64,000 nucleotides of DNA from an uncultured bacterium (GTDB lineage Bacteria; Patescibacteriota; Minisyncoccia; Phycocordibacterales; Phycocordibacteraceae): NCBI GenBank assembly GCA_937879955.1, contig CALFMK010000003.1:12581-76580 (forward strand), in the 5' to 3' direction. The notes below the pieces were generated by a model. The model was not told where the DNA came from. It did not search any database and worked only from the letters and a program-made list of their open reading frames with translations. Of the stretch, positions 26,526 to 43,270 are shown in pieces. Position numbers and translations under genes: made by a program. Every line of letters begins with the position of its first letter. Position 1 is the stretch's first letter.

Positions 26526-26680
26526 CTTTACACTTATCCACACATGAAATTTTTTTCACGCGTAAATATTTTTTTTAGTCGCATACTAATCGGTAGCACG
26601 CATGACAAAGAAATTTTTCGTAAGAAAAGATTCTTATCGTGCGGGTCGACAATACCAGTCATAGAAATTTTCACAGACCT

Positions 26681-26848: not shown

Positions 26849-26868
26849 TCTTCGGACTCATGCCTTGT

Positions 26869-26894
26869 AAAAGCCTCCCGTACGGGAGGCTTTT
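26869..26894 (+). terminator. Rho-independent terminator (aaaagcctcccg-ta-cgggaggctttt)
   Basis: Perfect stem plus T tail. Confidence 0.8.
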
Positions 26895-26957
26895 ACGTTG
26901 ATGCTGTCAGGGCGAGGCGTTATGCGGTATAGTGCCGATACCTATATATAGATACGT

Positions 26958-29486
26958 ATGGCCAATATCCTCGGAAAACTCTTCTCAAAGAACCAGTCGG
27001 CAAGCTTCATAAAGCTCGCTGCGCCGGTCGTCGCCCGTGCTGCCGAGCTCTCGGAAGGCTTCGAGAAGCTCTCGGCCGAGGAGCTCAAGGAACGCGTTGA
27101 TGCGATCCGGGAGCGCACGAACGGACGTCCGGAGTCGAACAATGACGTCGCGGAGACGTTCGCGCTCGTACGCGAGGCTGCGCGCCGCACGCTGAACGAG
27201 CGCCACTACGACGTGCAACTCATCGGCGGCCTGGTGCTCAGTCGCGGCAAGATCGCCGAGATGCGCACGGGAGAAGGAAAGACGCTCGTCGCGACGCTCG
27301 CGGTGACGCTCTTCGCGCTCGCCGGGAAGGGCGTGCACGTGGTGACGGTGAACGACTATCTCGCGCGACGCGATGCCGCATGGATGGGGCAGGTGTACGC
27401 TGCGCTCGGCCTTACCACCGGAGTCGTGACGTCGAGCGGCGCGTACGTCTATGACGCGTCCCATGTCGAGCCTGCGGAGGACGCGAAGCGCGACGAGGAA
27501 GGATCCTTCCGCGTCTTCTATGATTATCTCCGTCCTGCGACGAAGAAGGAGGCGTACGCGGCGGACATCACCTACGCGACGAACAACGAGCTCGGCTTCG
27601 ATTACCTGCGCGACAACACCGCGTACGACCTCTCGCAGCTCGTGCAGCGCGGCCAGCACTTCGCGATCGTGGACGAGATCGACTCGATCCTCATCGACGA
27701 GGCGCGTACGCCGCTCATCATCTCGGGACCGGCTGCCGATGCCGAAGGGCTCTACGAGCGCTTCGCCGCCATCGTCCGCAATTTCAAGGAGGGTGAGGAC
27801 TATACCGTGGACGAGAAGCAGCGCGCCGTGCAGATAACGGAGGAGGGTATGATGAAGGCCGAGAAGGCCCTCAATATCGAGAACCTCTACGCCGAGGGCG
27901 GCATGAAGTACGCGCATCATCTCGATACCGCCGTCCGCGCGAAGGCGCTCTTCCGCAAGGACAAGGAGTACGTCGTGAAGGACAACGAGATCATGATCGT
28001 CGACGAGTTCACGGGACGCCTGCAGCCGGGCCGCCGCTGGAGCGAAGGCCTCCATCAGGCCATCGAGGCGAAGGAAGGGACGCCAATCCAGAAGGAGACT
28101 CGCACCTACGCGTCCGTTACCTTCCAGAACTACTTCCGCATGTACGAGCGCGTCGCCGGCATGACCGGTACGGGCCTCTCTTCGGAGGAGGAGTTCTACA
28201 CCGTGTACGGCCTCGAGGTCGTACAGGTGCCGACCCATCGTCCTATCAAGCGCAAGGACTTCGACGACCTCATCTTCCAGAACCTCGCCGGCAAGTACAA
28301 GGCGCTGGCAGCGCACGTGAAGGAGATCCACGCGAAGGGTCAGCCGGTGCTCATCGGCACGGTGTCCATCGAGGACAACGAGGTCGTTTCAGAGGCGCTC
28401 AAGGCCGTGGGCATCCCGCACGAGGTGCTCAACGCCAAGAATCACGAGCGCGAGGGCGAGATCATCGCCAACGCGGGCCGCAAGGGCGCCGTCACGGTGG
28501 CGACCAACCTCGCCGGCCGCGGCGTCGACATCAAGCTCGGCGGCGCCGTCGCGACGCCTGAGGAACGCGAGGCGGTACGCGAGCTCGGCGGCCTCGTCGT
28601 CATGGGTACGGAGCGCCACGAGGCGCGCCGCATCGACGACCAGCTGCGCGGCCGTTCGGGCCGCCAGGGAGACCCGGGCGAGACCCGGTTCTACGTGTCG
28701 CTCGACGACAAGCTCATGCGCGTCTTCGCGTCCGACATGGTGAAGAACGTGATGGGCACGTTCAAGATCCCCGAGGACGAGCCGATCCAGAGCTCCCTCA
28801 TCACCAAGTCGCTCGAGACCGCGCAGAAGCGCATCGAGGGCTTCAACTTCGACTCCCGCAAGCAGGTGCTCTCGTACGACGACGTCCTCAACACGCAGCG
28901 TCTCGCGGTCTACCGCGAGCGCATGACGGCGCTCAGCGGCACGGACGAGGAGATCGAGGCGCTCGTGAAGGAGTTCATGGAGGGCGACGCCGATGCCATC
29001 GCCGCGTACGACGCGAAGAAGGAGGAGTTCGGCGCGGCTGCCATGAGCGCGCTCATGCGCCGCCTCGTGCTCCAGGTGACCGACACCTTCTGGCTCGAGC
29101 ACCTCGAGACCATGGACTACCTCAGGCGCTCCGTATCGCTCCGCGCCTACGGCCAGCGCGATCCGCTCATCGAGTACCGCAAGGAAGGCCTCGCCCGCTA
29201 CCAGGCGCTCCAGTCAGGCGTACGCACGGCGGTGCGCGAGGCTATCCCGCGCATTCGCCCGGCAGACGATTCCCGCATGCGCGCCGAGGAGGAGAAGACG
29301 CGCGCGAAGCTCGTGGCGGCTTCCGAGGGAGGAGACGGATCCGCCGAGACACCGGCGCCCATCAAGAACGAGCATGCCTTCGGCCGCAACGACGAGGTAA
29401 CCATCCGTCGCGGCGAGGAGACGCAGACCCTGAAGTACAAGAAGGCGGAAGCTCTCCTCAAGGACGGCTGGACCATCGTCTCGTAG
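26958..29486 (+). CDS. secA: preprotein translocase ATPase SecA
   Basis: 842 aa; Walker A MRTGEGKT, DEVDSILIDEARTPLIISG, RGRSGRQGDPG; a tataGT/TATATA box lies upstream. Confidence 0.9.
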   Translation: MANILGKLFSKNQSASFIKLAAPVVARAAELSEGFEKLSAEELKERVDAIRERTNGRPESNNDVAETFALVREAARRTLNERHYDVQLIGGLVLSRGKIAEMRTGEGKTLVATLAVTLFALAGKGVHVVTVNDYLARRDAAWMGQVYAALGLTTGVVTSSGAYVYDASHVEPAEDAKRDEEGSFRVFYDYLRPATKKEAYAADITYATNNELGFDYLRDNTAYDLSQLVQRGQHFAIVDEIDSILIDEARTPLIISGPAADAEGLYERFAAIVRNFKEGEDYTVDEKQRAVQITEEGMMKAEKALNIENLYAEGGMKYAHHLDTAVRAKALFRKDKEYVVKDNEIMIVDEFTGRLQPGRRWSEGLHQAIEAKEGTPIQKETRTYASVTFQNYFRMYERVAGMTGTGLSSEEEFYTVYGLEVVQVPTHRPIKRKDFDDLIFQNLAGKYKALAAHVKEIHAKGQPVLIGTVSIEDNEVVSEALKAVGIPHEVLNAKNHEREGEIIANAGRKGAVTVATNLAGRGVDIKLGGAVATPEEREAVRELGGLVVMGTERHEARRIDDQLRGRSGRQGDPGETRFYVSLDDKLMRVFASDMVKNVMGTFKIPEDEPIQSSLITKSLETAQKRIEGFNFDSRKQVLSYDDVLNTQRLAVYRERMTALSGTDEEIEALVKEFMEGDADAIAAYDAKKEEFGAAAMSALMRRLVLQVTDTFWLEHLETMDYLRRSVSLRAYGQRDPLIEYRKEGLARYQALQSGVRTAVREAIPRIRPADDSRMRAEEEKTRAKLVAASEGGDGSAETPAPIKNEHAFGRNDEVTIRRGEETQTLKYKKAEALLKDGWTIVS

Positions 29487-29538: not shown

Positions 29539-29607
29539 TCGTTCGTCCAAAATCATAACGCCTACAATACTAGGTAAAGTCAAATAACCGTGCTATACTC
29601 TCACGCA

Positions 29608-30603
29608 ATGGCATTCGTCGATGAGATGCGCGTACATGCGATAGCCGGACACGGAGGTCCGGGCGTTGTGCGTTGGCTGCACCTGAAGGGCCTCGAGAAG
29701 GGAGGTCCTGCTGGCGGCGACGGCGGTCGCGGCGGCGACATCATCGTCGAGGCCGTGCGCGACCTCGCGGCGCTCGCGGCATATCGCTACACGAAGCGGG
29801 TGAAGGCGGAGAACGGAGGTGCCGGAGGCGGCGTCGACCGTCACGGCGCTGACGGCGCTCCGGTGGTCCTGCGTCTCCCGGTCGGCTCCACGGTCCGGGT
29901 ATCCTCCACGGGCGACACCTTCGACCTCATGAAGGAAGGGGAACGGATCGTCGTCCTGAAGGGCGGGCCTGGCGGCTTCGGCAACGCCCACTACAAGGGA
30001 CCGACCAACCAGAATCCGATGCAGGCCTCGCCGGGCAAGAACGGCCAGGCTGGGGATATCCATATCACCCTCAAGCTCATCGCCGATGCCGGTCTCATCG
30101 GCTTCCCGAACGCCGGGAAGTCCTCCCTCCTGAACGAGCTGACTCGGGCTCGCTCCCGCGTCGGCGCCTATCCGTTCACGACCCTCGACCCGCACCTCGG
30201 AGACTTCTATGGGCGCATCCTGGCCGATATCCCTGGTCTCATCGAGGGCGCCTCGGAAGGAAAAGGTCTCGGTTCTCGTTTCCTCAAGCACATAGAACGT
30301 ACCAAATTCCTTGTGCATCTCGTCTCGGTTGAGCAAGAAGACGTCGTCGCGGCCTATAGGGCCATACGGGACGAGCTCTCGGCCTTCGGTAACGGCCTCG
30401 ACCAGAAGGACGAGCTCATCGTGCTCTCGAAGGTGGATCTCGTAGAGCCAGAAGAGGCTGAGCGCCTCCAGAAGGCCCTCGAGAAGGCGGCAGGGAAGAA
30501 GGTCCTCCAGCTCACCATAGCCGACGAGAACCTCCTCAAGGCGTTCTCGGACACCCTCTCCAAAGAGCTCGCCAAGGGTGACGAGACGGTAGCGGCGGAC
30601 TAG
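29608..30603 (+). CDS. obg: GTPase Obg/CgtA
   Basis: Start reassigned to MAFVDEM at 29608 (TATACT 8 nt upstream); Gly-rich Obg fold GGDGGRGGDI, then G-domain GFPNAGKSSLL and DIPGLIEGA. Confidence 0.85.
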   Translation: MAFVDEMRVHAIAGHGGPGVVRWLHLKGLEKGGPAGGDGGRGGDIIVEAVRDLAALAAYRYTKRVKAENGGAGGGVDRHGADGAPVVLRLPVGSTVRVSSTGDTFDLMKEGERIVVLKGGPGGFGNAHYKGPTNQNPMQASPGKNGQAGDIHITLKLIADAGLIGFPNAGKSSLLNELTRARSRVGAYPFTTLDPHLGDFYGRILADIPGLIEGASEGKGLGSRFLKHIERTKFLVHLVSVEQEDVVAAYRAIRDELSAFGNGLDQKDELIVLSKVDLVEPEEAERLQKALEKAAGKKVLQLTIADENLLKAFSDTLSKELAKGDETVAAD

Positions 30604-30627: not shown

Positions 30628-32049
30628 ATGAGCGAATACCGTCCGACCATAGGTCTTGAGATCCACGCCGAGCTGAATACCCGGACGAAGATGTTCTGTG
30701 CCTGCAAGAACGATCCTGAGGCCGAGCTTCCGAACACGAACGTCTGCCCGGTCTGCATGGCGCATCCTGGCACGCTTCCGAACGCGAACCGCGAGGCGGT
30801 CCATCAGGTGCTCCGCGTCGGTGCTGCGCTCGGCGCGAAGCTCGCGGATTTCTCCGAGTGGGATCGCAAGAGCTATTTCTATCCGGACATACCGAAGGGA
30901 TACCAGATCAGCCAGTACGAGCACCCGCTCGTCGAGGGCGGGAGCCTGAACGGCGTCGCCATCACGCGCGTCCACCTCGAGGAGGACACCGCACGCTCCT
31001 CGCACACCACGAGCGATGGCGTGTCCCTCGTCGACTTCAACCGCGCGGGCGTCCCGCTCATGGAGCTCGTTACCGATCCAGTGATCCATGATGCGGAGAC
31101 CGCTGGCGCGTTCGCGCGCGAGCTCCAGCTCCTCCTGCGCACGCTCGGCGCGTCCCATGCGAATCTCGAGAAAGGCGAGATGCGCGTCGAGGCGAACATC
31201 TCCGTCTCGAAGACCGACGCCTTCGGCACGAAGGTCGAGGTCAAGAACCTGAACTCGTTCCGTTCGGTCGAGCGCGCGATCGCGTTCGAGATCGAGCGCC
31301 AGTCGAAGATCCTCGACGAGGGAGGCGTCGTGCTCCAGGAGACCCGTGGCTGGGACGAGGGAGGACAGAAGACCTTCTCGCAGCGTCTCAAGGAGGGGAG
31401 TGCCGACTACCGCTACTTCCCAGAGCCTGACCTCCCGAAGCTGCTTATCTCAGAGATTCCCGAGTTCTCCGCAGAGGCACTCAAGGCATCGCTCCCGGAG
31501 CTTCCCTGGGAGCGTCGCGCGCGGTACGTATCGCTCGGACTGAAAGAGAGCGACGCGGCATTCTTCGCATCGACGAGTACGCGCAGCAATTTCTTCGATG
31601 CGGTCGCTGCTGAAATCGGCGATGACAAATCGCTCCTCACATCCGCGACGAACTATCTCGTTTCAGACGTTGCAGGCTGGTACGCGAAGTCGGGCAAGGA
31701 AGAGTACGAGGGTCTCATGCCTGCGAGCTTCGTCTCGCTCATGCGCCTCGTCGGCGCAGGCGACCTTTCCTCGCGCGGTGCGAAGGACGTCCTCGCCATC
31801 CTGCTCGAGAAGGGCGGCGACCCTGCGACTATCGCCAAGGAAGGCGGCTTCATCCAGGTGAGCGACGAAGGCGCACTCCTTGCTGCCGTCCAGGCCGTAC
31901 TCAAGGAACATGAGGGTGTGGCTGCTGAGTACCGGGCAGGCAAGGAGTCATCGCTCCAGTTCCTGGTTGGCATGAGCATGAAGGCCATGAAGGGGGCAGG
32001 CAATCCAGGAGCCCTCAAGGCGCTGCTTGAGGCAGAGCTCAGAAAGTAG
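30628..32049 (+). CDS. gatB: Asp-tRNA(Asn)/Glu-tRNA(Gln) amidotransferase subunit B
   Basis: 473 aa; MSEYRPTIGLEIHAELNTRTKMFC, PVCMAHPGTLP typical of GatB. Confidence 0.85.
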   Translation: MSEYRPTIGLEIHAELNTRTKMFCACKNDPEAELPNTNVCPVCMAHPGTLPNANREAVHQVLRVGAALGAKLADFSEWDRKSYFYPDIPKGYQISQYEHPLVEGGSLNGVAITRVHLEEDTARSSHTTSDGVSLVDFNRAGVPLMELVTDPVIHDAETAGAFARELQLLLRTLGASHANLEKGEMRVEANISVSKTDAFGTKVEVKNLNSFRSVERAIAFEIERQSKILDEGGVVLQETRGWDEGGQKTFSQRLKEGSADYRYFPEPDLPKLLISEIPEFSAEALKASLPELPWERRARYVSLGLKESDAAFFASTSTRSNFFDAVAAEIGDDKSLLTSATNYLVSDVAGWYAKSGKEEYEGLMPASFVSLMRLVGAGDLSSRGAKDVLAILLEKGGDPATIAKEGGFIQVSDEGALLAAVQAVLKEHEGVAAEYRAGKESSLQFLVGMSMKAMKGAGNPGALKALLEAELRK

Positions 32050-32168
32050 ACACAAAGAGCGGTTTAGTACGAAAGGCGATCCGAGAGGGTCGTCTTTCTC
32101 AATTTCTCTCATGCATCGTGACTGAAAATACTGGAAGAAGAGAGAACAAAAGTGCGTGTTTATAAACT

Positions 32169-33083
32169 ATGGTAGACGAGGCGAGAAACCCATATAATTC
32201 AAGCATGGATGAGATACTAATCGAGGGAAGAGTGTTCATCTCGTCAAAGCAAGCGGCCAAGATTACTGGATATGCCAAGGACTATGTCGGCCAGCTTTGC
32301 CGGGAAGGGAGAGTAGACGCACGTCTTGTCGGCAGGAACTGGTATGTTCTCCAGGACTCCATACGCGAGCACCGCTTCGGAAAACCGGAGGAGGATGCCC
32401 ATAATGCCCCTGAAATCGAAACTTCCGCCGCAGAGGATCGTATTTCGACTTGGCAACGGCCTCAGTATCAGGCAGAGACACCGGCATTCGTAGCTGACTT
32501 GGCACCCAAGACGCCGACCACAGCAGCGAATCCTGCCATACAGGACATGCAGTCCGCCTGGAAGGAGTGGTTTGAGGAGAGGAAGCCAACAGCAGCGACC
32601 TTCTCCGGAGAGCACGGTGCTGATAAAAGTGAGGATTTGTTAGTGATGTCGTCTGAAGACTCTGCAAATGAGACAGAGATGATCGAAGAGGTGGAGGAGG
32701 TGGTCATCTCGCACATAACCCAGGAGCCCGTATATGAGTCTCCAGAGCCAGAAGAAGAGAGCAGGGTGGAGTTGCACCGATCGTACGGCTCTAGAATGGA
32801 GCGTGAGAGTGTAAGGACTGATGCGGTACCAGTGGCCGACATTTCTTCCAAGGCCAGCCAGAAGAGAACCGCACGTTTTGAGGAGGAATTCGATGATGAC
32901 CGTAGTGGCTCAGGAATCATGCGTGCAGTGATCGTAGTGGTCGCACTCGCTGCTGTACTCGTTGCTATTGTTGGAACGGGTAATGCAGAACGACTCCTTG
33001 CTGGCACGAGCTTTGACTTCGGGGCACAGAAGAGCGTAATAGACTTTCTCGGTGGAAAGAGCACGTATGAAAGTAGCTTATAA
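32169..33083 (+). CDS. membrane protein with N-terminal excisionase-like (HTH_17-type) domain; paralogous N-terminus to the giant gene at 33548
   Basis: 304 aa; ISSKQAAKITGYAKDYVGQLCREGRVDARLVGRNWYV aligns (~50% identity) with ISTKDASALSGYNADYLSRLCRAGKIRGEQVGRAWLI of the next gene; acidic middle; C-terminal TM IMRAVIVVVALAAVLVAIVG. Lower-GC gene; leaderless-type TATAAACT box at 32157. Confidence 0.55.
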   Translation: MVDEARNPYNSSMDEILIEGRVFISSKQAAKITGYAKDYVGQLCREGRVDARLVGRNWYVLQDSIREHRFGKPEEDAHNAPEIETSAAEDRISTWQRPQYQAETPAFVADLAPKTPTTAANPAIQDMQSAWKEWFEERKPTAATFSGEHGADKSEDLLVMSSEDSANETEMIEEVEEVVISHITQEPVYESPEPEEESRVELHRSYGSRMERESVRTDAVPVADISSKASQKRTARFEEEFDDDRSGSGIMRAVIVVVALAAVLVAIVGTGNAERLLAGTSFDFGAQKSVIDFLGGKSTYESSL

Positions 33084-33182
33084 ATACTAGCTATCTCGTC
33101 TCGTATAGAAGAGATTAAAGGTAAGAGGGTGAAAATGGCTGGCGAGAGTAAGGATTCCCAAGCCCACTTACTTAAATAGTAG

Positions 33183-33219
33183 AAAAGAGCCCCGGAACAT
33201 CATTCCGGGGCTCTTTTCT
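33183..33219 (+). terminator. Rho-independent terminator (aaaagagccccggaa-catcat-tccggggctcttttct)
   Basis: Perfect 13-bp stem plus T tail. Confidence 0.8.
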
Positions 33220-33547
33220 GCGCTAAGTATCTTACTCAAACGAATCTATCGTGGGATTTCTAGCCTTACGCGTATGCCAGATTCAAATTTGAAGGCCTTA
33301 TGCAGACATACTTATTTCTTTCTACACATGAATGACAGTAAGTCATGCGAAGCTGCTCGTGCCCCTGACCAAATGAGTCCGACTCGGTCGGTAGTAGAAA
33401 TTTCTTAGAGTTCATCCATGGAAACTTATTCCTGGTCTCGAGCGCACGCTCTCAATGATCGAAGAAGACTATCCCCAAACTCTCGGAATAAATAAGCGAC
33501 AACACAAGCTAGAATATAGGTAATTCGGATATCCGACTCATCGAATC

Positions 33548-36500
33548 TTGAACACGCTCCTTAATGGAAATCTGATCTCGACGAAAGACGCCTCGGCGCT
33601 CTCGGGATACAACGCGGACTATCTCTCGCGTCTCTGTCGCGCAGGCAAGATCCGTGGCGAGCAGGTCGGACGCGCGTGGCTCATCGAGCGCTCCTCGCTC
33701 GAAGAATTCATGGCTACGCAGGTGATGCGCAAGATCGAGCTTTCCGAGAATCTTGCCCGAGAGCGCGAAGAGGAATATCGCAGGATCAACCAGGCCGTTC
33801 CTGAGATGACGGTCCGCATGCAGGACAAAACTGACCATGCGGTGAACACGGTCATGTCCGTGCTCTCGAAGATGCACATGCCTCAGGCGTACCCGGCATT
33901 CGGCGGCCGCGCGGCATCCTTCGCTCTCACGGCGCTCGTGATCGGCGGAAGCACCCTCATCGCCGGCAGCGGGATAGTCGAGAAGACCGGAGTCGCGTTC
34001 ACGCATTTCGCGTTCGAGACGCGAGAGCTCGCGCTCGAGTCAGCCGACCGGACACTCGCTTATGCGCATGAGCGGAACGCGCTTCTCGCTTCGCGCGCGA
34101 TGCAAGAAGTGCGCGTGCACGACCTCTTGCTTGCATCTGTGAATGATGCGCGCGTGGAGACGCTCCCGTCGAAGTTCTCCGCAGGCTTCGAGGCGCTCGC
34201 GACACCGAGAGAGATTCCGGCGATAGCGCTATCGGAAGCGACTCCTCTTACAGATGAGGGTGCGCGCAGAGTGGCACAAGCACGTGCGATCGCGATGGAT
34301 CTCGAGACCGATCCGATCGGAAGCCTTACGCGCTCGTACCTGAGCACGGGTGCGTATCTTGTGCACCAGACTGACGCGGTACTCGCGATGCATCTTGATG
34401 CTACGTATGCGGCAGCCGATTCGATCCTTTCGCTCGGCGCCGGCATCCGTGACGCCTCGAGCCTTGCGGTCGGCGCGTACCAGGACGGCGTCTATGCCTA
34501 CGTGCGTAACGTCGAGCTCGTGCCGCGTACCGTGCTTTCGGTTGCATATGGTATCGGTGATGCGATGGCGACAGGCGTCTCAGGAGGCGTGCAGCGTGCG
34601 CCGGAGCGCTACGACGCGGGGATCATGGCATTCGCGATGCTCTCGCAGGATGCGGGCGAACGCATCGCGCGGGATTCATCCGCGTTCGGTGATGCGTCGC
34701 GAACGGTAGTCACCGCCATGCTCGAGATGGAGGATCGCAGCATCGCTCACGCGGTCGGTTCGAGCCGCGTGGCGTTCGGCGAGGGGCTCGATGCTGTTGA
34801 GTCCGTACCGCCCTCTATCGCGTACGCATTCGGCGGAGGCGTAGATCATCTTACTGCCGCAGTAGCGAGCGCACAGGCTCTCACCGCCTCTCCTTTCGCT
34901 GCGTTCGAGCCGTCCGACCTGCTCGAAGGATTCACGCACGGCGTACTCACGTTCTTCTCGGACGCCGTGACGACTATCGCCGGATTCTTCGGGGGCGAAG
35001 AGACCGGGCTGGCCGTCATCCCGTCAGAAGGTCCGGAGGAGACGTACTCGGTCCCGACGGCCGTTCAGCAGGAAGGAGGAGACACTAATATCTACGAGGG
35101 CCCGGTGACGATCGTGAACAATCATAACGAGTATCCGGCGCTCACATACTCGGGCGTAACGAAGGGGTACGTCGATACGCAACTCACGCTCCTTAACGAT
35201 CGCCTGATACGGAGCATCGATAATTCGCGCCGTGCAGCTAGGGGCGGCACCATCTCAATCAACGGACTTTCAGGTACCGGGCTCACGCTCAGCAATTCGG
35301 CCTGGAACGGCGGCTCGATCGTCGGCGCGACGCTCGATGTGCTCGATACGGCCGTCACCGGAGACCTCACTGCGAGCGGCTCGATCGAATCGAGCACGTA
35401 CATCGCCGGACCGTACGTGCTCGCGACCTCTACGACCGCGACCTCCGCGTTCTCCGGAAACATCGCCGCAGGACGCAACGCGACGTTCGGTACCACGGCT
35501 GCTGACCTGCTCACGGTGAATAGTTCGATTGCATCGCATCTCGTTCCGTCCGCCAACAACGCCTATGACCTCGGCTCCGCCGGTAATTACTGGCGTCGCG
35601 GCTACGTGAACGAGCTCATCGTTAATAACCTCTCCGCTGCATCGAGTTCGATAGGAGGAACGGCATCAAATGTCTTTTCCGTGAATTCCGATAACGCGAC
35701 GAACGATATCGAGGACAGTTCGATACTTTTTAACCGTGGCGTCGCGACTCCGAACGCGCTCATGACGTGGAACGCGTCCATGAAACGATTCGAGTTCAAC
35801 ATGCCGGTCTATTCCGCGGACGGCATCTTCGCGAGCGCGACCACGACCAATCTCATCGCGACGAACCTTTCCCTCGGAGGATCGCAGTTCACGTCGCTGC
35901 TCGGGAGCGGGCTCCAGAATGTCGCCGGCGCGCTTACGGTAAGTACCACGACGCTCGCCGGGAGCTTCTTCTCGCAGGACGGGAACTCGTTCGGTTCCAC
36001 GGCGACGCTCGGTACGAACGACGGCCAGACGCTCCAGTTCGAGACCGGGAACGTTCCACGCATATCCGTGCTCGCGAACGGCAATGTCGGTATAGGTACC
36101 ACAACCCCGCCGAACAAGTTCTCGGTCGTGTCCGGAGGGAACGATGACGGCATCTCCTGGTACAACTCGGTGGATGGCCGGCTTCTCGGGAGGTTCGGGC
36201 AGGAGGCAGGGACTCAGGGACGCATGACTCTCTGGAACGGAGCCTCTCCTGCCATAAACCTGCAGGCAGGCTCGAACTCGAATTTCATAAACGGGAACCT
36301 GATGCTGGGCAGTAATAATGTCGCGGCTAGCAGGCTCGCGGTGAACGGTAGCGCGGCGGTAGGCTCGGGCTACCAGCTCCTTGCCGCTCCGACGAACGGA
36401 TTGCTCGTCGAGGGGAACGTGGGTATTGGCACCTCGAGCCCGTCCTACGTATTCGATGTCCAGGGATCAGGATCGAACCAGGCCCGTATCTCGAGCACGG

Positions 36501-39500
36501 GCACGCTCTATAACATCCTCGATCTCAGCGCGTACGGCACCGGAGGCAACGTGCAGAACATGCTCCGCTTCAACAACGGCGCTTCCACGGCCTGGTCGTT
36601 CGGTGTAAATCAGGCGAACGGAAACGCTCTTACGTTCTCATCCGCCTCGCTACTCACATCGGCTCCGCGCATGGTGCTTACGACCGGCGGCAATGTCGGT
36701 ATCGGAACCACGTCTCCCGCGGTTCCTCTCGATGTCGTCGGTGCCATCCGCTCGAACGCGAGCGGAGGAACGACATACGCCCTCATCGGCGCGTCGGGCA
36801 ATGGTCTCGCCGGTCGTATAACCCTCGGACGCCGTTCGGACGGAGTCACGACGTCGGCGTTCTACGGGACGACCGTAGATGGCGCGAATGATGGTGCCAC
36901 CATCCATTACAGCGGCGGGTCTCAGGCCGCTATCGAGCTCTCTTCCGGGACCATATCCTTCAGAACGAATACCATAGGCACTGAGCGTATGCGTCTCGAT
37001 ACGAACGGCAATCTTGGTATCGGCACCAGCTCTCCATCGCAGCCCCTCACCGTAGCAGGGAACGGTTACCTTACAGGCGGCCTCGGCATCGGTGCCGCTA
37101 ATACCACGGCAGGAAGCGTGCTTGCGACCGGAAATTACATAACCACCGGCACGGGCTCCTATTTCGGAGCAACGACGAACTTCAATGCCTTCATACCGTT
37201 CGATAACGGCGGACGCACCGGCATCAATGCAGGAGGGAGCTTCTACGTGAACCTAGACTCCAATAACGACCAGACGGACCGTGCTTTCATAATTGCGAGG
37301 GACAGCAGCGCGCTCTCGAGCGGTACCGAGCTCTTCCGGATTCAGGAGAACGGCAATGTCGGTATCGGCACGACCACTCCTGATCAGAAACTTTCCGTGA
37401 CTGGCACCATCAAGGCGGAGCGCGCAGGCGGCCTTAAGGGTTCGGCGTTCCTCTTCCCGGCAGTCGGTAGCTCGAATAGCTGGTATGAGGGCCTCGGCTT
37501 CAATGCCTACTTCGACGGATCGAACTGGGTTACGGAGGGGGATGGAGCAAATAACGGCGGTTCGCTCCTCACCAGCTCTACGGCCGGCGGGTTCAGCTTC
37601 TTCAGCATGCCGAGCACCGGAGGTGCGGCCCAGACCATCGCCAATGCCAGTCTCGCGAATTACCAACGCATGACTATTACCTCGACGGGGAACGTCGGCA
37701 TAGGTACCAGTTCGCCTGCCACGAATTTTCATGTCAGTGGCATAGGCACCCAGACATTTAGGCTCGAGAATCAAGGCCTGGGCAATCTTTCGATCCAAGC
37801 GACGGGTGGTGATGGTCGTCTGTATACCTCATCAGGACCACTGCTTCTTCAGCCAAGCACAGGTAACGTCGGCATCGGTACCACCTCTCCGGTCTCGCAG
37901 TTCACCATAGACGGAACAAACTCCGCAGCCTTCCTTACCTATGGAGACACGGGCACCGGTTCCGGAACGTTTACCCTGAATTCGCCGAATTTCTCAACGC
38001 TTTCGCTCAATGGTAATACCGATGGCGCCCACGCTACTGCTAACTCTACGATTCGCCTTACTCTCAATAATGCGAACTACAGCGAGATCGGGCTTGATAG
38101 CGCATATGGGAACGGCTTAAAGCTCTTCACTGGCGAGACCTCTGGGTATGGCGGCGGTTCGGGAATCTTGATTACTCAGTCTGGCAACGTAGGGATCGGC
38201 ACTACTAATCCTGGTTCGACGCTTGATGTATCCGCGGGTGCGAGCGGAAGTGTGAACCAGATACGCGCGACGTTCGGAACGGGAAACGGTAACAGCCAAT
38301 TCGTTGCTAATCGACAGGCCACTTCTAACACTGCAGCCATTACATTCCAGACGAACGGCACGACGGATTGGGCTATCGGTCAGCCGTATTCGAGCCTCGG
38401 GGGCACTGGCTCTGATTTTCACATCTATGAGGCGGGCGCCTCGAGTCGTCTCACCATCCTCAAGTCGACTGGTTATGTCGGTATCGGCACGACGACACCA
38501 AACTATCTGCTGAGTTTAGGTATCCAGAGTGCAGCAAACGTGAATCAGGGCATAAGCCTCGCGAGGATTGCGGGCGGCCAGGAGGCGGTACGGTACGGCA
38601 TACGTTCTGACGCGGCAGGAAACTATCGCGGCTCGATAACGATGACAAACGCCGCCGGCACGCAGGTCGAGACGATGACCTTCAGTCCTGTTGGTAACGT
38701 CGGCATCGGCACTTCGTCTCCGTCCTCGATACTGCATATCGAATCGTCGTCGCCGGTCATAACCGTATACGACACGGCAGGATCGTCTGGTGCTCGGTTC
38801 AACGTAAACGGCCTTGTCGCTGCCGGCAGCCTTGCATACCGGTTCCAGACTGATAGCGGCACGAATACCATCATGTCGATGCTCCGTAATGGAAATGTCG
38901 GTATCGGGACGTCATCACCGACAGGAAGGCTCACGGTCTATCAGTCCGCGTTTACGAGCACCGACGGCATCTATCTCGATAATTCGGGGAATAACTCAGG
39001 CCGTATCTATATAGATTCAGGGGGTGCCCTGAATCTGCAGCGCGGAACCAATACGGGTCAGCTCGTACTCAGTGCAGCAGGTAACGTCGGCATCGGCACG
39101 ACATCTCCTGTGGCAAAGCTTGATGTCGGCGGCCAGATCGGCACGGTTGGATCAGGTATCGGCGCAGGCGCGGGCGTGGCCACGTTCTCAACGAACGTAA
39201 ATAACTCGGCCGGCATCGAGATGCGCAACGCGAGCGCTGCCGGAGGCGCCTCGTTCCGATTCGCCATCTCCGACAACAATGCCAACGACTATCTTGCTTT
39301 CGAGCAGTCGAGCACCGGGAACGGCGGCACCTTGTTCGGTATGACGCGTTCAGGAATTTCCACGCTCTTCACGAACGGAACCGGGAACCGCACGCTTGCG
39401 GTAGGAACGGTGAACGCAGGCGCGGTTGTTCTGGGGACGAGTAACGCGGAGCGTCTGCGCATTACATCCACGGGTAATGTGGGTATCGGTACTTCTTCGC

Positions 39501-40936
39501 CGCAAAATACCCTCGAGCTTTATGCTGGCAATCCTGCTCTCCGCACGACGCTCAGCGGTACTTCTGGCGCGGCCGAATGGATAGCGTACGAAAGCGGTAC
39601 GTATAAGGGCGGTTTCTCTGCATTCGGCAGTACCTATCCAACGACCAGCTGGCGCGATGCGGTCATGCTCACTGCCGCAACCGACAACACCGGTTCCCTT
39701 ATCTTCCGTACTCGTACCGCAGGCTCGTACGCTGAGCGCATGAACATTACTAACGCAGGTAATGTCGGCATCGGTACGACGACGCCGACCGCGCAGCTCC
39801 ATACGACGGGCACGGTGCGCTTCTCGAACTTCGGCGCCGGCACGCTCCAGACCGATGCGGACGGCAACCTGAGCGTCTCCTCCGACGAGCGCCTCAAGCA
39901 GATCTCGGGAGGGTTCGGCCGCGGGCTCGCGGACCTGATGGGTATCAATCCTATAACCTTCCATTGGAAGGCCTCCACCGGCTTCGATACCGTGAACAGC
40001 TACGCGGGATTCAGCGCGCAGAATGTCCAGAGCGCCATACCGGAAGCCGTCGATACCGATCCGCGCGGATACCTCACGCTCTCCGACCGTCCGATCCTCG
40101 CGGCTTCCGTGAACGCGATCAAGGAGCTCAATCTCCGCACGCTCTCGCTCGCGCCGGCGGAGACGAATACGGCAGCGAAGAACCTCGAGGTGTCGGCGGA
40201 CGCGTCCATCGCCGGCGCGCTCTCTGTCTTCGGAAGCGGATCCTTCGCGCTCGGCCTCGAGGCGACGGACGTGCGCGCCTCGCGCGTGCTCGTGCCGAAG
40301 ACAGGCGAGCTGCCGGCCGAGGTCCTCACCGGCGGCGATGCCGACCTCTTCAAGATGGCGGCGCGCGGCATGGCGGACGGCGCCGAGGCGCTGCGCCGCA
40401 CGGACCTCGTCATGGAGAAGCTCGCGACCATCGACCAGCGCCTCGCGGAGCTCGAGGCTGCCGCGAGCGCGCCGGCAGGCATCCCGGTTATCGAGAATCT
40501 CTCAGAGATCATGAGTCGGTTCAGCATCCGCGACGGCATACTCTCGGCCGTCGAGATGGCCGTCGAGCGCCTCACGATCGGCTCTCCTGAGAAGCCGACC
40601 GGCGTCACGTTCTATGACGAGGTCACGGGCGAGCCGTACTGCCTCGCGATACGCAATGGCGCGCAGGTCATACGCGAAGGGAAGTGCGAGGTCGCGAGCC
40701 GCACGGCCCCGGAACCGGCGGTCGTCGTGGACGCGCCGGCGCCGCAGGAGACCGTAAGCACCTCGACCCCGCCGAGCCCGGCTGCCGAGATGCCTTCGCC
40801 ATCGGCCGGAGCAGGCGCGGACGACGGTGCTCCAGAGCCTCCCGCTGAGGTGGTCGAGACGCCTGCAGAGCCAGCGCCCGAGCCGATCGTCACGCCGGCC
40901 GCGGAACCTGCCCCTTCGCCGGAACCGGCCGCCTAG
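33548..40936 (+). CDS. giant (2462 aa) membrane-anchored tail-fiber-like surface protein: N-terminal excisionase-like HTH, one TM, Ala-rich helical region, ~14 'GNVGIGT(T/S)SP' fiber repeats, C-terminal peptidase-S74 intramolecular chaperone domain, coiled coil, Pro/Ala-rich tail
   Basis: Repeats (ANGNVGIGTTTP, TGGNVGIGTTSP, ...) seen in the protein and as periodic ggnaaygtcggnatcggnac in DNA; S74 hallmark SSDERLKQISGGFGRGLADLMGINPITFHWK at ~39881; TM FALTALVIGGSTLIAGSGIV after the HTH-like N-terminus. Confidence 0.7.
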   Translation: MNTLLNGNLISTKDASALSGYNADYLSRLCRAGKIRGEQVGRAWLIERSSLEEFMATQVMRKIELSENLAREREEEYRRINQAVPEMTVRMQDKTDHAVNTVMSVLSKMHMPQAYPAFGGRAASFALTALVIGGSTLIAGSGIVEKTGVAFTHFAFETRELALESADRTLAYAHERNALLASRAMQEVRVHDLLLASVNDARVETLPSKFSAGFEALATPREIPAIALSEATPLTDEGARRVAQARAIAMDLETDPIGSLTRSYLSTGAYLVHQTDAVLAMHLDATYAAADSILSLGAGIRDASSLAVGAYQDGVYAYVRNVELVPRTVLSVAYGIGDAMATGVSGGVQRAPERYDAGIMAFAMLSQDAGERIARDSSAFGDASRTVVTAMLEMEDRSIAHAVGSSRVAFGEGLDAVESVPPSIAYAFGGGVDHLTAAVASAQALTASPFAAFEPSDLLEGFTHGVLTFFSDAVTTIAGFFGGEETGLAVIPSEGPEETYSVPTAVQQEGGDTNIYEGPVTIVNNHNEYPALTYSGVTKGYVDTQLTLLNDRLIRSIDNSRRAARGGTISINGLSGTGLTLSNSAWNGGSIVGATLDVLDTAVTGDLTASGSIESSTYIAGPYVLATSTTATSAFSGNIAAGRNATFGTTAADLLTVNSSIASHLVPSANNAYDLGSAGNYWRRGYVNELIVNNLSAASSSIGGTASNVFSVNSDNATNDIEDSSILFNRGVATPNALMTWNASMKRFEFNMPVYSADGIFASATTTNLIATNLSLGGSQFTSLLGSGLQNVAGALTVSTTTLAGSFFSQDGNSFGSTATLGTNDGQTLQFETGNVPRISVLANGNVGIGTTTPPNKFSVVSGGNDDGISWYNSVDGRLLGRFGQEAGTQGRMTLWNGASPAINLQAGSNSNFINGNLMLGSNNVAASRLAVNGSAAVGSGYQLLAAPTNGLLVEGNVGIGTSSPSYVFDVQGSGSNQARISSTGTLYNILDLSAYGTGGNVQNMLRFNNGASTAWSFGVNQANGNALTFSSASLLTSAPRMVLTTGGNVGIGTTSPAVPLDVVGAIRSNASGGTTYALIGASGNGLAGRITLGRRSDGVTTSAFYGTTVDGANDGATIHYSGGSQAAIELSSGTISFRTNTIGTERMRLDTNGNLGIGTSSPSQPLTVAGNGYLTGGLGIGAANTTAGSVLATGNYITTGTGSYFGATTNFNAFIPFDNGGRTGINAGGSFYVNLDSNNDQTDRAFIIARDSSALSSGTELFRIQENGNVGIGTTTPDQKLSVTGTIKAERAGGLKGSAFLFPAVGSSNSWYEGLGFNAYFDGSNWVTEGDGANNGGSLLTSSTAGGFSFFSMPSTGGAAQTIANASLANYQRMTITSTGNVGIGTSSPATNFHVSGIGTQTFRLENQGLGNLSIQATGGDGRLYTSSGPLLLQPSTGNVGIGTTSPVSQFTIDGTNSAAFLTYGDTGTGSGTFTLNSPNFSTLSLNGNTDGAHATANSTIRLTLNNANYSEIGLDSAYGNGLKLFTGETSGYGGGSGILITQSGNVGIGTTNPGSTLDVSAGASGSVNQIRATFGTGNGNSQFVANRQATSNTAAITFQTNGTTDWAIGQPYSSLGGTGSDFHIYEAGASSRLTILKSTGYVGIGTTTPNYLLSLGIQSAANVNQGISLARIAGGQEAVRYGIRSDAAGNYRGSITMTNAAGTQVETMTFSPVGNVGIGTSSPSSILHIESSSPVITVYDTAGSSGARFNVNGLVAAGSLAYRFQTDSGTNTIMSMLRNGNVGIGTSSPTGRLTVYQSAFTSTDGIYLDNSGNNSGRIYIDSGGALNLQRGTNTGQLVLSAAGNVGIGTTSPVAKLDVGGQIGTVGSGIGAGAGVATFSTNVNNSAGIEMRNASAAGGASFRFAISDNNANDYLAFEQSSTGNGGTLFGMTRSGISTLFTNGTGNRTLAVGTVNAGAVVLGTSNAERLRITSTGNVGIGTSSPQNTLELYAGNPALRTTLSGTSGAAEWIAYESGTYKGGFSAFGSTYPTTSWRDAVMLTAATDNTGSLIFRTRTAGSYAERMNITNAGNVGIGTTTPTAQLHTTGTVRFSNFGAGTLQTDADGNLSVSSDERLKQISGGFGRGLADLMGINPITFHWKASTGFDTVNSYAGFSAQNVQSAIPEAVDTDPRGYLTLSDRPILAASVNAIKELNLRTLSLAPAETNTAAKNLEVSADASIAGALSVFGSGSFALGLEATDVRASRVLVPKTGELPAEVLTGGDADLFKMAARGMADGAEALRRTDLVMEKLATIDQRLAELEAAASAPAGIPVIENLSEIMSRFSIRDGILSAVEMAVERLTIGSPEKPTGVTFYDEVTGEPYCLAIRNGAQVIREGKCEVASRTAPEPAVVVDAPAPQETVSTSTPPSPAAEMPSPSAGAGADDGAPEPPAEVVETPAEPAPEPIVTPAAEPAPSPEPAA

Positions 40937-43269: not shown

Positions 43270-43270
43270 C

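What the first reader, a model, noticed from the sequence alone, without database searches (positions are those of the whole stretch)
32050..33547. Lower-GC gene upstream encodes a 304-aa membrane protein whose N-terminal domain is paralogous to that of the giant fibre gene; a 464-bp AT-rich non-coding gap separates them
Residues ~19-65 of the 32169 product (ISSKQAAKITGYAKDYVGQLCREGRVDARLVGRNWYV) align at ~50% identity with the N-terminus of the giant protein. Both proteins have the HTH-like domain followed by a single TM. The small gene and the 464-bp intergenic region (33084-33547) are clearly AT-richer than the genome. The gene has its own leaderless-type promoter and a strong terminator (33183-33219). 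Sharing an N-terminal module suggests a common partner (DNA, or a cytoplasmic/membrane docking site) and a functional pair of small and giant protein: a two-gene module.
Basis: seen in the sequence. Interest (0 to 1): 0.6.

Follow-up and report, generated by a model that had tools for sequence, protein, structure and literature searches.

The report
Membrane-anchored DNA-binding heads on surface fibre pair
In a group of ultra-small candidate-phyla-radiation (CPR, Patescibacteria) bacteria, a small membrane protein and the giant surface fibre encoded next to it carry the same excisionase-type DNA-binding-like domain on the inside of the cell, and this undescribed pair, with its own conserved DNA motifs, may link the cell surface to gene control.

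Summary
The small protein and the giant protein share a winged helix-turn-helix (wHTH) N-terminal module: BLASTP 39% over 51 aa, E 6e-11; profile-profile 98.3%, E 1e-14.

The pair is a fixed module. In 67 of 68 species-level Patescibacteria/Paceibacteria loci with enough downstream sequence, the small gene is followed by an HTH-headed ORF, usually giant, within the synteny SecA-Obg-GatB-small-giant.

Both proteins have the module inside the cell and a single membrane anchor. The module models as an excisionase/BldC/TraN/MerR-type wHTH, and its closest solved relatives are DNA binders.

- The small gene starts at 32205 (292 aa), on a leaderless promoter conserved in 80 of 81 loci.
- Identity is about 40%, not 50%.
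- The low GC3 is family-wide (77 of 79 loci), so it does not point to horizontal transfer.
- The gap is not a long 5'UTR. It holds a strong terminator and the giant gene's own promoter.

New findings: a 12-nt palindrome, TCGGATATCCGA, abuts the giant's start codon. A CGAGACGAGATA box flanks the small gene and also sits, with frozen codons, inside obg.

Best model, which is inference: membrane-tethered DNA binding that regulates or tethers this locus. I found no description of it in the literature. Interest is moderately high.

The parts
30316..30327 (-). Copy of the 'S-box' (CGAGACGAGATG on the minus strand) embedded in the obg coding sequence (His-Leu-Val-Ser).
   Evidence: The exact 9-nt core is present at this position in 58 of 73 loci. 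The codons are frozen: CAT 99%, CTC 82%, GTC 100%, TCG 100%. Neighbouring invariant residues show 38-62% for their top codon.
32157..32198 (+). Promoter of the small gene: conserved upstream element TGTTTATAAACTAT (32157-32170), S-box CGAGGCGAGAAA (32177-32188) and -10 box TATAAT (32193-32198).
   Evidence: Consensus over 81 loci: tgtTcATAAcCTaTt..a.cGAGaCgAGAtAgccTTATACT-N6-ATG. A -10 box ends 5-8 nt before the ATG in 80 of 81 loci. The box core, with at most 1 mismatch, is present in 50 of 81.
32205..33083 (+). Residues 1-60 form the winged HTH. Residues 61-235 are an acidic, mostly disordered linker (net charge -25) with conserved short motifs (W..PQY, MQSAWxEWF, LPDGSxDF, VELHRSY). The TM helix is at about residues 236-257, followed by a conserved tail of about 30 aa outside the cell.
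   Evidence: Family alignment with invariant columns. AlphaFold2 gives pLDDT above 90 for residues 1-60 and for the TM helix. Hydropathy and charge. 1171 homologues, full-length at 36-68% identity, all unnamed or 'hypothetical', from Patescibacteria/Paceibacterota.
33092..33116 (.). S-box immediately after the small gene's stop codon: TATCTCGTCTCG (33092-33103) with a partial inverted partner GAGAT (33111-33115).
   Evidence: A minus-strand box copy lies within 60 nt of the stop in 69 of 81 loci. It is often a near-perfect inverted repeat, TATCTCGTCTCG-N3-6-CGAGACGAGATA. In the window the RNA fold is not significant (-8.4 kcal/mol, z -1.3).
33179..33221 (+). Strong intrinsic terminator of the small gene: a 19-bp stem with an A-tract and a T-tract, so probably bidirectional.
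   Evidence: Folds at -37.8 kcal/mol; shuffles average -11.5; z = -9.9.
33469..33536 (+). Promoter and operator-like region of the giant gene: DnaA-box-like CTATCCCCA (33469-33477), -10 box TAGAAT (33510-33515) and the perfect palindrome TCGGATATCCGA (33525-33536).
   Evidence: Consensus over 64 loci. The palindrome is unique in the window and occurs once per locus. It is present with at most 2 mismatches in 56 of 70 loci, and ends 1 nt before the start codon in 42 of them. TTATCC(A/C)CA is a single copy at a fixed distance: 1.84 per kb in the gap against 0.14 per kb elsewhere.
33548..40936 (+). Giant protein, 2462 aa, TTG start. wHTH at residues 9-47; conserved long helix at 48-82; second helix at 86-108; TM at about 120-144; then the extracellular fibre, with a Peptidase_S74 intramolecular-chaperone domain at residues 2112-2168 (nt 39881-40051).
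   Evidence: Pfam HTH_17 28.6 bits (33.7 for the first 150 aa) and Peptidase_S74 33.5 bits. AlphaFold2 of residues 1-150 has mean pLDDT 81.6. Alignment of 44 giant N-termini. The TTG aligns with the ATG of relatives.

Best explanation
**What it is.** This is a conserved, chromosomal two-gene module of Paceibacteria-type Patescibacteria. Both products are single-pass membrane proteins whose N-terminus stays in the cytoplasm. Both carry the same excisionase/BldC/TraN/MerR-type winged helix-turn-helix there.

**The two proteins.**
- The small protein (292 aa) is tail-anchored. It has a nearly invariant wHTH, a long acidic disordered linker with conserved short motifs, a C-terminal TM helix and a short conserved outside tail.
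- The giant protein is a signal-anchored surface fibre. It has a wHTH, a long conserved helix, a TM helix, and then thousands of variable extracellular residues that end in a tail-fibre-type S74 chaperone domain.

**Most likely mechanism (inference).** The module is a sequence-specific double-stranded-DNA-binding head held at the membrane. It acts on its own locus, and two conserved motif sets are the candidate targets:
- The 'S-box' CGAGACGAGATA. It overlaps the -35/spacer region of the leaderless small-gene promoter. It is repeated as an inverted repeat just after that gene, and once more inside obg.
- The palindrome TCGGATATCCGA, lying between the predicted transcription start and the start codon of the giant gene.

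The pair would then work as a membrane-tethered regulator or tether. That would set expression of the giant fibre, could physically hold the locus at the membrane, and could couple the state of the fibre outside the cell to transcription inside.

**Shown here:** paralogy, co-occurrence, predicted topology, fold class and conservation of the motifs.

**Inferred:** DNA binding, which protein binds which motif, and the regulatory outcome.
For: **Paralogy:**

**Co-occurrence and synteny:** (67 of 68 loci).

**Fold and nearest relatives.**
- Both N-domains model with pLDDT above 90.
- Their best solved matches are Pukovnik Xis (TM 0.68-0.74, rmsd 1.6-1.7), TraN, BldC-DNA, RdfS, GlnR-DNA, RacA-DNA and MerR-family-DNA complexes.
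- The giant N-terminal profile hits the dsDNA-binding TraN by sequence, E 3.9e-5.
- It also hits PHROG excisionase and DNA-binding families, TIGR01764 'excise' and Pfam HTH_17 in 43 of 44 members.
- The only viral relative found carries the same signature, SGYxxDYLxRLxRxGKI, and lies directly upstream of a 430-aa ORF that I judged by eye to be a tyrosine integrase.
- The canonical wing motif VGRxW is kept in both families.

**Topology:** no signal peptide, one hydrophobic helix each, and fibre and S74 domains after the giant's TM.

**Cis elements.**
- Palindrome: unique in the window, once per locus, at a fixed position. It is not a significant RNA structure (z 0.17), and its variants are not compensatory.
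- S-box: three conserved sites. Codons are frozen inside obg, which points to a nucleotide-level constraint.

**Genomic context:** housekeeping genes on both sides.
Against: - No binding was tested, and the assignment of motifs to proteins is circumstantial.
- The giant's wHTH varies (33-57% identity) while the palindrome stays the same, and I saw no covariation between them.
- The small protein's wHTH is invariant, so covariation cannot be assessed for it.
- The two motif types differ from each other, so one head cannot obviously read both.
- The small protein scores below Pfam's HTH_17 threshold on its own (20.2 against 27 bits).
- HTH folds can be re-used for protein contacts, as in RodZ.
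- The motifs could be targets of other factors (RNA polymerase sigma, DnaA, an unrelated regulator), or could be RNA-level elements in read-through transcripts.
- One genome (L074) keeps the promoter and the first residues of the downstream gene but has lost the HTH, so the head is dispensable at least there.
Confidence: 0.45

Rival explanations
1. **The wHTH is a protein-docking module, not a DNA binder.** This is the RodZ precedent: a cytoplasmic HTH, a TM helix and an outside domain, where the HTH binds MreB. Here both proteins would use the shared head to dock onto the same cytoplasmic partner, such as a cytoskeletal, divisome or polar scaffold, or onto each other. That would position the giant fibre on the cell, with the small protein acting as adaptor or assembly factor.
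For: - Nearly every surface position of the small protein's head is invariant across about 30 diverse homologues. That is more than DNA contact alone would require.
- The linker carries conserved short linear motifs typical of protein-protein contacts.
- The small protein has a conserved tail outside the cell that could touch the giant protein.
- Co-occurrence is strict.
- There is no covariation between the giant's head and the palindrome.
Against: - Nearly all of the closest structural and sequence relatives are DNA binders, many of them solved on DNA.
- The DNA-contacting wing motif and basic residues are retained.
- There is no Pfam hit to RodZ-type domains.
- This rival leaves the three conserved motif sets at the locus without an explanation.
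Confidence: 0.25
2. **The shared head is mainly a topology or export device.** A fast-folding, positively charged cytoplasmic plug would fix the N-in orientation and aid co-translational targeting of a multi-thousand-residue exported chain, possibly with the nearby SecA. The small protein would be a degenerate duplicate or a chaperone. The conserved DNA motifs would be ordinary promoter and terminator elements read by other factors.
For: - The head lies directly N-terminal to the signal-anchor in the giant protein.
- secA is in conserved synteny three genes upstream.
- L074 shows that the downstream protein can exist without the head.
Against: - A plug would not need about 40% identity, and an invariant signature, shared with a separately conserved partner protein.
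- In the small protein the TM helix is about 175 residues from the head and is C-terminal, so the head cannot be acting as a signal-anchor aid there.
- It does not explain the frozen codons in obg.
Confidence: 0.1
3. **The AT-rich gap is a replication origin or encodes a small RNA or long leader.** On this reading the juxtaposition of the two genes is incidental.
For: - The gap is long (275-1014 nt, median 602) and AT-rich in all relatives.
- It contains a DnaA-box-like TTATCC(A/C)CA.
Against: - There is only one box per gap: 55 of 72 loci have exactly one. The window's copy has two mismatches (my count; one search found no copy there at one mismatch).
- GC skew shows no switch at this position, and genes on both sides run the same way.
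- No Rfam family reaches threshold; the weak hits all sit on the terminator.
- The middle of the gap is not conserved at nucleotide or peptide level.
- The giant gene's -10 box lies about 30 nt upstream of its start codon.
- Co-occurrence in 67 of 68 loci is not incidental.
Confidence: 0.03

Closest known systems
Excisionase / BldC / TraN branch of the MerR-like winged-HTH superfamily (Pfam HTH_17 PF12728, TIGR01764)
   Same: Same fold: strand, helix-turn-helix, beta-hairpin wing, C-terminal helix. Same wing motif, G-R-x-W. Sequence hits to HTH_17, TraN and PHROG excisionases. Some giant relatives carry two heads in tandem, like TraN's internal dimer.
   Different: Known members are small soluble proteins of phages, integrative and conjugative elements, plasmids or Streptomyces. 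Here the domain is fused to a membrane anchor, and in one case to a surface fibre of 2,500-7,000 aa. It is encoded in the core chromosome beside housekeeping genes, with no recombinase nearby.
RacA of Bacillus subtilis (MerR-like wHTH plus coiled coil that fastens the chromosome to the cell pole through DivIVA)
   Same: The giant's head plus long following helix resembles the RacA-DNA structure 5i44 at fold level (TM 0.57-0.58). The idea of a DNA-binding head held at the membrane is the same.
   Different: RacA is soluble and reaches the membrane through a partner; here the anchor is a TM helix in the same chain. No sequence-level relation was found. RacA's sites are spread around the origin region (my own knowledge), whereas the sites seen here cluster at the locus itself.
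ToxR / CadC / TcpP one-component membrane-bound transcription factors
   Same: Cytoplasmic DNA-binding head, one TM helix and an outside part. DNA is brought to the membrane, as shown for ToxR in PMC10629549 and CadC in PMC5430869 (titles and abstracts listed).
   Different: Those proteins use an OmpR-type wHTH and a folded periplasmic sensor. Here the head is excisionase-type. The small protein has only about 30 residues outside, and the giant's outside part is a fibre, not a sensor domain. No Trans_reg_C hit.
RodZ (cytoplasmic HTH, TM helix, extracytoplasmic domain; the HTH binds MreB)
   Same: Same overall layout, and it shows that a membrane-tethered HTH need not bind DNA.
   Different: RodZ has an XRE-type HTH and a DUF4115 domain; neither is detected here.
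Phage tail fibres and endosialidase tailspikes with a C-terminal intramolecular chaperone (Peptidase_S74); giant putative adhesins of Patescibacteria
   Same: The giant protein has an S74 domain at residues 2112-2168. Giant, fast-evolving surface proteins of Patescibacteria are discussed as adhesins in PMC11809585.
   Different: No phage context. The N-terminal cytoplasmic wHTH, the TM anchor and the conserved small partner gene are not mentioned in the papers I could search.

Membership tests
Pfam HTH_17 (PF12728) / TIGR01764 excisionase-family DNA-binding domain | Sequence score at or above the curated threshold | tested here: inconclusive
   - Giant: 28.6 bits full-length and 33.7 bits for the first 150 aa, against a cut-off of 27, so it passes. 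43 of 44 giant N-termini hit the family at E <= 0.01.
- Small: 20.2 bits, so it fails on its own, and only a minority of its homologues carry the precomputed hit.
- TIGR01764: 22.3 against 28.8 for the giant, which fails.
- The small family is linked to the giant family by hhalign at 98.3%.
Pfam HTH_17 (PF12728) / TIGR01764 excisionase-family DNA-binding domain | Winged HTH fold of Xis/BldC type | tested here: met
   AlphaFold2 models have pLDDT above 90 over the domain. The best PDB matches are Xis 4j2n (TM 0.68-0.74, rmsd 1.6-1.7 A), BldC 6ama/6amk (TM 0.70-0.77), RdfS and TraN.
Pfam HTH_17 (PF12728) / TIGR01764 excisionase-family DNA-binding domain | Binds double-stranded DNA | not testable with these tools
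   Only inferred, from relatives and from conserved motifs at the locus.
MerR family transcription regulators | wHTH followed by a long dimerisation helix and a C-terminal effector-binding domain; operator in the promoter spacer | tested here: not met
   The giant protein has a wHTH and a long helix (48-82), and there are fold hits to MtaN, BmrR, CadR and SoxR. However, there is no Pfam MerR hit and no effector domain; a TM helix follows instead. The S-box does overlap the -35/spacer of the small gene's promoter, which resembles MerR operators only in position.
RodZ | XRE-type HTH (HTH_25) plus TM plus DUF4115 | tested here: not met
   No such Pfam hits for either protein at E <= 1. Only the layout is alike.
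ToxR/CadC-like membrane-bound activators | OmpR-type wHTH (Trans_reg_C) plus TM plus periplasmic sensor domain | tested here: not met
   No Trans_reg_C hit. The fold matches are to the excisionase/MerR class.
Tail-fibre / endosialidase intramolecular chaperone (Peptidase_S74) | S74 domain above threshold near the C-terminal end of a fibrous protein | tested here: met
   33.5 bits against a cut-off of 22, residues 2112-2168 of 2462. Also recorded for giants in L001, L003 and L007.
Chromosomal replication origin (oriC) | Cluster of several DnaA boxes with an AT-rich unwinding element and a GC-skew switch | tested here: not met
   One box-like element per gap. No skew switch at this position.
Prophage or mobile element | Recombinase or phage genes nearby, and variable genomic location | tested here: not met
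   Flanked by secA, obg and gatB upstream, and by GAPDH, rpiB, rpe and transketolase downstream. The position is the same in all relatives examined. No recombinase or phage gene appeared among the flanking genes I scanned.

The most novel reading that the evidence does not exclude
The module is a trans-membrane feedback and tethering device specific to these episymbiotic bacteria. The excisionase-type head of the small protein, and of the nascent or assembled giant fibre, would bind the conserved boxes in its own locus. That would hold the gene at the membrane while a chain of 2,500-7,000 residues is made and exported. It would also switch transcription according to the state of the fibre outside the cell, for example on contact with a host cell. 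This would be a one-locus signalling route from the cell surface to DNA, with no kinase or soluble regulator.
Probability: 0.2. Interest if true: 0.85.

Novelty: new variant of a known kind. Interest (0 to 1): 0.64.

Why it matters
Patescibacteria make up a large share of bacterial diversity. Most cannot be grown, and they are thought to live attached to other cells. How they attach and how they regulate their few genes is largely unknown.

Their giant surface proteins are the usual candidates for host attachment. Here, hundreds of such proteins turn out to begin with a DNA-binding-type domain on the cytoplasmic side. The search found 2815 clusters at 50% identity, 502 of them at E <= 1e-10. 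In one large clade these proteins are always partnered with a small, extremely conserved membrane protein that carries the same domain.

If the heads bind the conserved motifs described here, this is a direct physical link between a surface fibre and the chromosome. It would also give a defined set of short DNA sites and 60-residue domains that can be tested in vitro without culturing the organism.

If the heads dock on a protein instead, the module marks an unknown scaffold that positions the fibre. Either way, a large family of 'hypothetical proteins' gains an architecture and testable partners.

Tried and rejected
1. **oriC in the gap.** Rejected: there is a single DnaA-box-like element and no skew switch.
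2. **sRNA, riboswitch or long 5'UTR in the gap.**
   - Rfam gives only sub-threshold hits on the terminator.
   - There is no nucleotide or peptide conservation in the middle of the gap.
   - The giant gene's promoter abuts its start codon.
3. **Palindrome as an RNA hairpin.** It folds at -4.2 kcal/mol with z 0.17. Its variants break the fourth pair without compensation.
4. **3' S-box as an antisense promoter.** The -10-like hexamers sit at scattered offsets (+1, +7, +12 and others), unlike the fixed +7 at the sense promoter.
5. **The short inverted repeat TCTCG...CGAGA as a general terminator motif.** Hits elsewhere are scattered background.
6. **Low GC as a sign of recent transfer.** GC3 of the small gene is below that of gatB in 77 of 79 loci.
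7. **Start of the small gene at 32169.** The apparent conservation of 'MVDEARNPYN' is conserved promoter DNA, and many relatives have in-frame stops there.
8. **Covariation between the giant's head and the palindrome.** None was seen.
9. **Phage origin.**
   - One viral-contig hit only, an actinophage-like excisionase.
   - PADLOC gave only a weak sub-threshold hit, mad1 at E 0.0056.
10. **Searches that gave little or could not be run.**
    - The word-indexed protein search with the giant's first 250 aa returned a single hit. The exhaustive representative search was needed instead.
    - Looking up the window's own small protein in the contig index found nothing.
Full report
**1. Observation**

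The window has 61% G+C. It carries secA (26958-29486), obg (29590-30603), gatB (30628-32049), the small ORF (32169/32205-33083), a 464-nt gap and the 2462-aa ORF (33548-40936), all on the + strand. The gene names come from the Pfam tables of syntenic loci.

- BLASTP of the two products aligns residues 17-67 of the small protein with residues 4-53 of the giant protein at 39% identity, E 6e-11.
- tblastn with either module finds only these two copies in the 64 kb.
- Pfam places both on HTH_17. The giant scores 28.6 bits, above the 27-bit cut-off. The small protein scores 20.2 bits, below it.
- Pfam also finds a Peptidase_S74 domain at residues 2112-2168 of the giant protein.
- The gap has 43.5% G+C. 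The small gene has 53.0% G+C with GC3 0.553-0.555, against GC3 0.78-0.88 for its neighbours.
- The hairpin at 33179-33221 folds at -37.8 kcal/mol, z = -9.9.

**2. The small protein is a conserved family, and it starts at 32205**

The database search returned 1171 homologues. The best 120 are mostly full-length, 275-330 aa and 36-68% identical. All are unnamed or 'hypothetical', and where a source names them they come from Patescibacteria, Paceibacterota or Parcubacteria.

In an alignment of 30 of them the first 60 residues are almost invariant: ...SSKRAAKITGYAKDYVGQLCREGRVEARLVGRNWYVLE..I.EHRFG. Further conserved features are:
- the islands W..PQY, MQSAWxEWF (invariant M, Q, A, W, W, F), LPDGSxDF and VELHRSY;
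- a hydrophobic helix followed by GTG;
- a C-terminal tail ...DFGxQKxIxDFLGG....

Most homologues begin at MDE(I/L), which corresponds to window 32205.

Upstream of that ATG, 81 loci share tgtTcATAAcCTaTt..a.cGAGaCgAGAtAgccTTATACT-N6-ATG. A TAnnnT hexamer ends 5-8 nt before the ATG in 80 of 81 loci, and exactly 6 nt before it in 65. In 46 of 81 loci there is an in-frame stop within the 15 codons upstream.

The gene is therefore read from a leaderless mRNA that starts at 32205, with its -10 box TATAAT at 32193-32198. The 12 extra residues of the 304-aa reading are conserved promoter DNA.

**3. The pair is a fixed module**

Five contigs that carry homologues at 40-66% identity all show SecA-Obg-GatB-small followed by a gene of 2834-4187 aa.

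A scan of one genome per species found 225 genomes with a relative, and 80 loci were fetched. I searched an HMM of the small family's first 60 residues against all six-frame ORFs of these loci. It hits the small gene at 112-143 bits. It also hits, at E 1e-4 to 1e-14, the N-terminus of the next ORF downstream.

- Of the 68 loci with at least 1.5 kb of downstream sequence, 67 have this second hit.
- Sixty of those ORFs run off the end of the fetched sequence or the contig, and 45 of these already exceed 1000 aa.
- The closed ones have 46 (a fragment), 557, 919, 1623, 2589, 2696 and 2929 aa.
- The exception, L074, keeps the promoter and the first residues MDPLLKEN. It then goes straight into the TM helix and has only 370 aa.

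hhalign of the small-family alignment against an alignment of 44 giant N-termini gives 98.3% probability, E 1.2e-14.

A phmmer search with the giant's first 150 residues against 1.84 billion representatives finds 2815 proteins at E <= 1e-3 and 502 at E <= 1e-10. Their lengths reach 7275 aa, and some carry two heads in tandem.

**4. Architecture**

*Small protein*
- AlphaFold2 gives pLDDT above 90 for residues 1-60, with the order strand-strand-helix-helix-strand-strand-helix.
- It also predicts a helix at 110-126, which is the MQSAWxEWF region, and a TM helix at 236-257. The rest has low confidence.
- The linker has a net charge of -25.

*Giant protein, residues 1-150*
- Mean pLDDT is 81.6.
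- The model has a wHTH at 9-47, a long helix at 48-82 (pLDDT 96-98, matching the conserved F..Q..RK.E.A..LS..RE.EY), a helix at 86-108 and a TM helix at 120-140.

Neither protein has a signal peptide. The fibre and the S74 domain lie after the giant's TM helix. So both N-termini should be cytoplasmic. This is an inference from the sequence.

**5. What the head resembles**

- Foldseek against the PDB puts Pukovnik Xis first for both models (TM 0.68-0.74, rmsd 1.6-1.7 A).
- Next come TraN of pIP501, BldC-DNA complexes, RdfS, GlnR-DNA, RacA-DNA and MerR-family-DNA complexes.
- By sequence, the giant profile hits TraN at E 3.9e-5. It also hits PHROG 'excisionase' and 'DNA binding protein' families and, below threshold, TIGR01764.
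- The one relative found in viral contigs is a 172-aa ORF with ...SGYTADYLGRLVREGKI.... It lies directly upstream of a 430-aa ORF that I judged by eye to be a tyrosine integrase; I ran no domain search on it.

The head is thus a bona fide member of the excisionase/MerR-like wHTH class, and its nearest characterised relatives bind DNA. Neither RodZ-type nor OmpR-type domains are detected.

**6. Conserved DNA motifs at the locus (new)**

*(a) Giant gene promoter.* Anchoring 64 loci on the sequence just before the giant's start codon gives this consensus:

ttatcC(a/c)caaa - about 20 nt - (at)CCGAAAta - aG.TA.aAT - .TAgtTAAT - TCGGaTATCCGA - C - ATG

- The 12-nt core is a perfect palindrome. It is unique in the window, at 33525-33536.
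- It occurs exactly once in each of 31 loci.
- It is present with at most 2 mismatches in 56 of 70 loci, and ends 1 nt before the start codon in 42 of them. In the subclade with a TTG start, which includes the window, it ends 9-11 nt before the start.
- A -10 box lies 9 nt upstream, so the palindrome should cover roughly +1 to +15 of the transcript. This is an inference.
- As RNA it is not a significant structure (z 0.17). Its variants, such as TCGCTCATCCGA and TCGTTCATCCGA, are not compensatory.
- The TTATCC(A/C)CA element looks like a DnaA box. However, it is a single, fixed, oriented copy, with a density of 1.84 per kb in the gaps against 0.14 per kb elsewhere.

*(b) The S-box, CGAGACGAGATA.*
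- It lies on the + strand over the -35/spacer of the small gene's promoter. The 9-nt core, with at most 1 mismatch, is there in 50 of 81 loci.
- It lies on the - strand within 60 nt after the small gene's stop in 69 of 81 loci. There it is often an inverted repeat, TATCTCGTCTCG-N3-6-CGAGACGAGATA.
- A third copy lies inside obg, about 1.85 kb upstream. The 9-nt core is exact in 58 of 73 loci.
- There it encodes His-Leu-Val-Ser with frozen codons: CAT 99%, CTC 82%, GTC 100%, TCG 100%. Neighbouring invariant Gly, Leu, Arg and Thr use their commonest codon only 38-62% of the time. That is a constraint on the nucleotides, not on the protein.
- A position histogram shows no other peak of comparable height within +/-10 kb.
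- In L021 an S-box-like inverted repeat also follows the giant gene. It precedes a further paralogue with two heads in tandem.

**7. What the gap is**

In the window, the gap holds the following, in order:
- the 3' S-box (33092-33116);
- the strong terminator (33179-33221);
- about 250 nt with no conservation across relatives;
- the giant gene's promoter (33469-33536).

No Rfam family reaches its threshold. The two genes are therefore separate transcription units, and the gap is neither a long leader nor an origin.

**8. The low GC**

GC3 of the small gene is lower than that of the adjacent gatB in 77 of 79 loci. The mean difference is -0.10, and it is larger in GC-rich genomes. This is a property of the family, not a sign of recent transfer. 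I have no tested explanation for it.

**9. Mechanism**

*Shown here:* the paralogy, the strict co-occurrence, the predicted N-in single-pass topology, the excisionase/MerR-type fold and the conserved motif sets at both promoters.

*Inferred:*
- The heads bind DNA at the membrane.
- The S-box and the palindrome are their targets.
- The S-box would act as an autoregulatory operator over the -35/spacer of P_small, with auxiliary sites that could allow looping or tethering.
- The palindrome would act as an operator at +1 of the giant gene.

The near-invariance of the small protein's head parallels the near-invariance of the motifs. The giant's head varies without matching changes in the palindrome. 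If one of the two reads the palindrome, the small protein is therefore the better candidate.

I put 0.45 on 'membrane-tethered DNA binding acting on this locus', and much less on any specific protein-motif assignment. The main rival is RodZ-like protein docking, at 0.25. An export or topology role gets 0.1, and an incidental gap feature 0.03.

**10. Novelty**

Full-text searches combined Patescibacteria or CPR with HTH, giant proteins, S74, and membrane-anchored excisionase or MerR-like terms. They returned nothing that describes this architecture or the small partner.

The one relevant paper treats giant Patescibacteria proteins as fast-evolving putative adhesins and does not mention the N-terminus (PMC11809585).

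Membrane-tethered DNA binders (ToxR, CadC), a membrane-tethered HTH that docks a protein (RodZ) and a wHTH chromosome anchor (RacA) are all known. I therefore class this as a new variant of a known kind. What is new is the excisionase-type head, its fusion to giant surface fibres, the obligate small paralogue and the locus-specific motif set.

Noticed in passing
window 30316-30327 (inside obg); the same position in 58 of 73 related loci: A 9-12-nt stretch of the obg coding sequence (CAT CTC GTC TCG) is conserved at synonymous sites across species. It is identical to the motif that flanks the small gene. The downstream codons CAA GAA GAC are also nearly frozen.
   Followed up: partly
window 33469-33477; about 85-100 nt upstream of the giant's HTH in 55 of 72 loci: A single, oriented DnaA-box-like element, TTATCC(A/C)CA, lies at a fixed distance upstream of the giant gene's -10 box. 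It is not a cluster, so it is not an origin. It may be a site for DnaA or for another regulator.
   Followed up: partly
window 32205-33083 and the homologous gene in 77 of 79 loci: The small gene has systematically lower third-position G+C than the adjacent gatB (mean difference -0.10; 0.555 against 0.794 in the window). The giant gene is also lower in the window (0.71). The cause is unknown.
   Followed up: partly
L021 19590-20888: After the first giant gene (2696 aa) comes an S-box-like inverted repeat (ATATCTCGGATAAGCGAGATA). It is followed by a further paralogue whose N-terminus has two head-plus-helix units in tandem before the TM helix. Several representatives also have two heads, for example P0139 with 7214 aa.
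   Followed up: partly
L074 2420-3740: This is the one genome in which the gene after the small gene has lost the head. The promoter and the first residues MDPLLKEN are kept, the TM helix follows directly, and the protein has only 370 aa.
   Followed up: yes
window 33548; L008-L019, L022: A subclade that includes the window uses TTG as the giant gene's start codon, with 9-11 extra nucleotides between the palindrome and the start. Most other relatives have ATG 1 nt after the palindrome.
   Followed up: partly
L008-L087: In 60 of 67 loci the giant ORF runs off the end of the fetched sequence or the contig. Repeat-rich giant genes seem to break assemblies often, so database lengths for this family are underestimates.
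   Followed up: no
L088 5737-7550 (IMG/VR contig): A GC-rich, phage-like contig encodes a 172-aa protein with the same head signature (SGYTADYLGRLVREGKI). It lies directly upstream of a 430-aa ORF that looks like a tyrosine integrase by eye. This is the closest non-Patescibacteria relative seen.
   Followed up: partly
window 43253-44347: Two genes with the type IV pilin N-terminal methylation motif (N_methyl) sit between rpe and transketolase, a few kb downstream of the giant gene.
   Followed up: no
window 16001-22000 and 26001-27000: These are other stretches of clearly lower G+C (0.52-0.57) than the window average. The first covers several minus-strand ORFs. I did not examine them.
   Followed up: no
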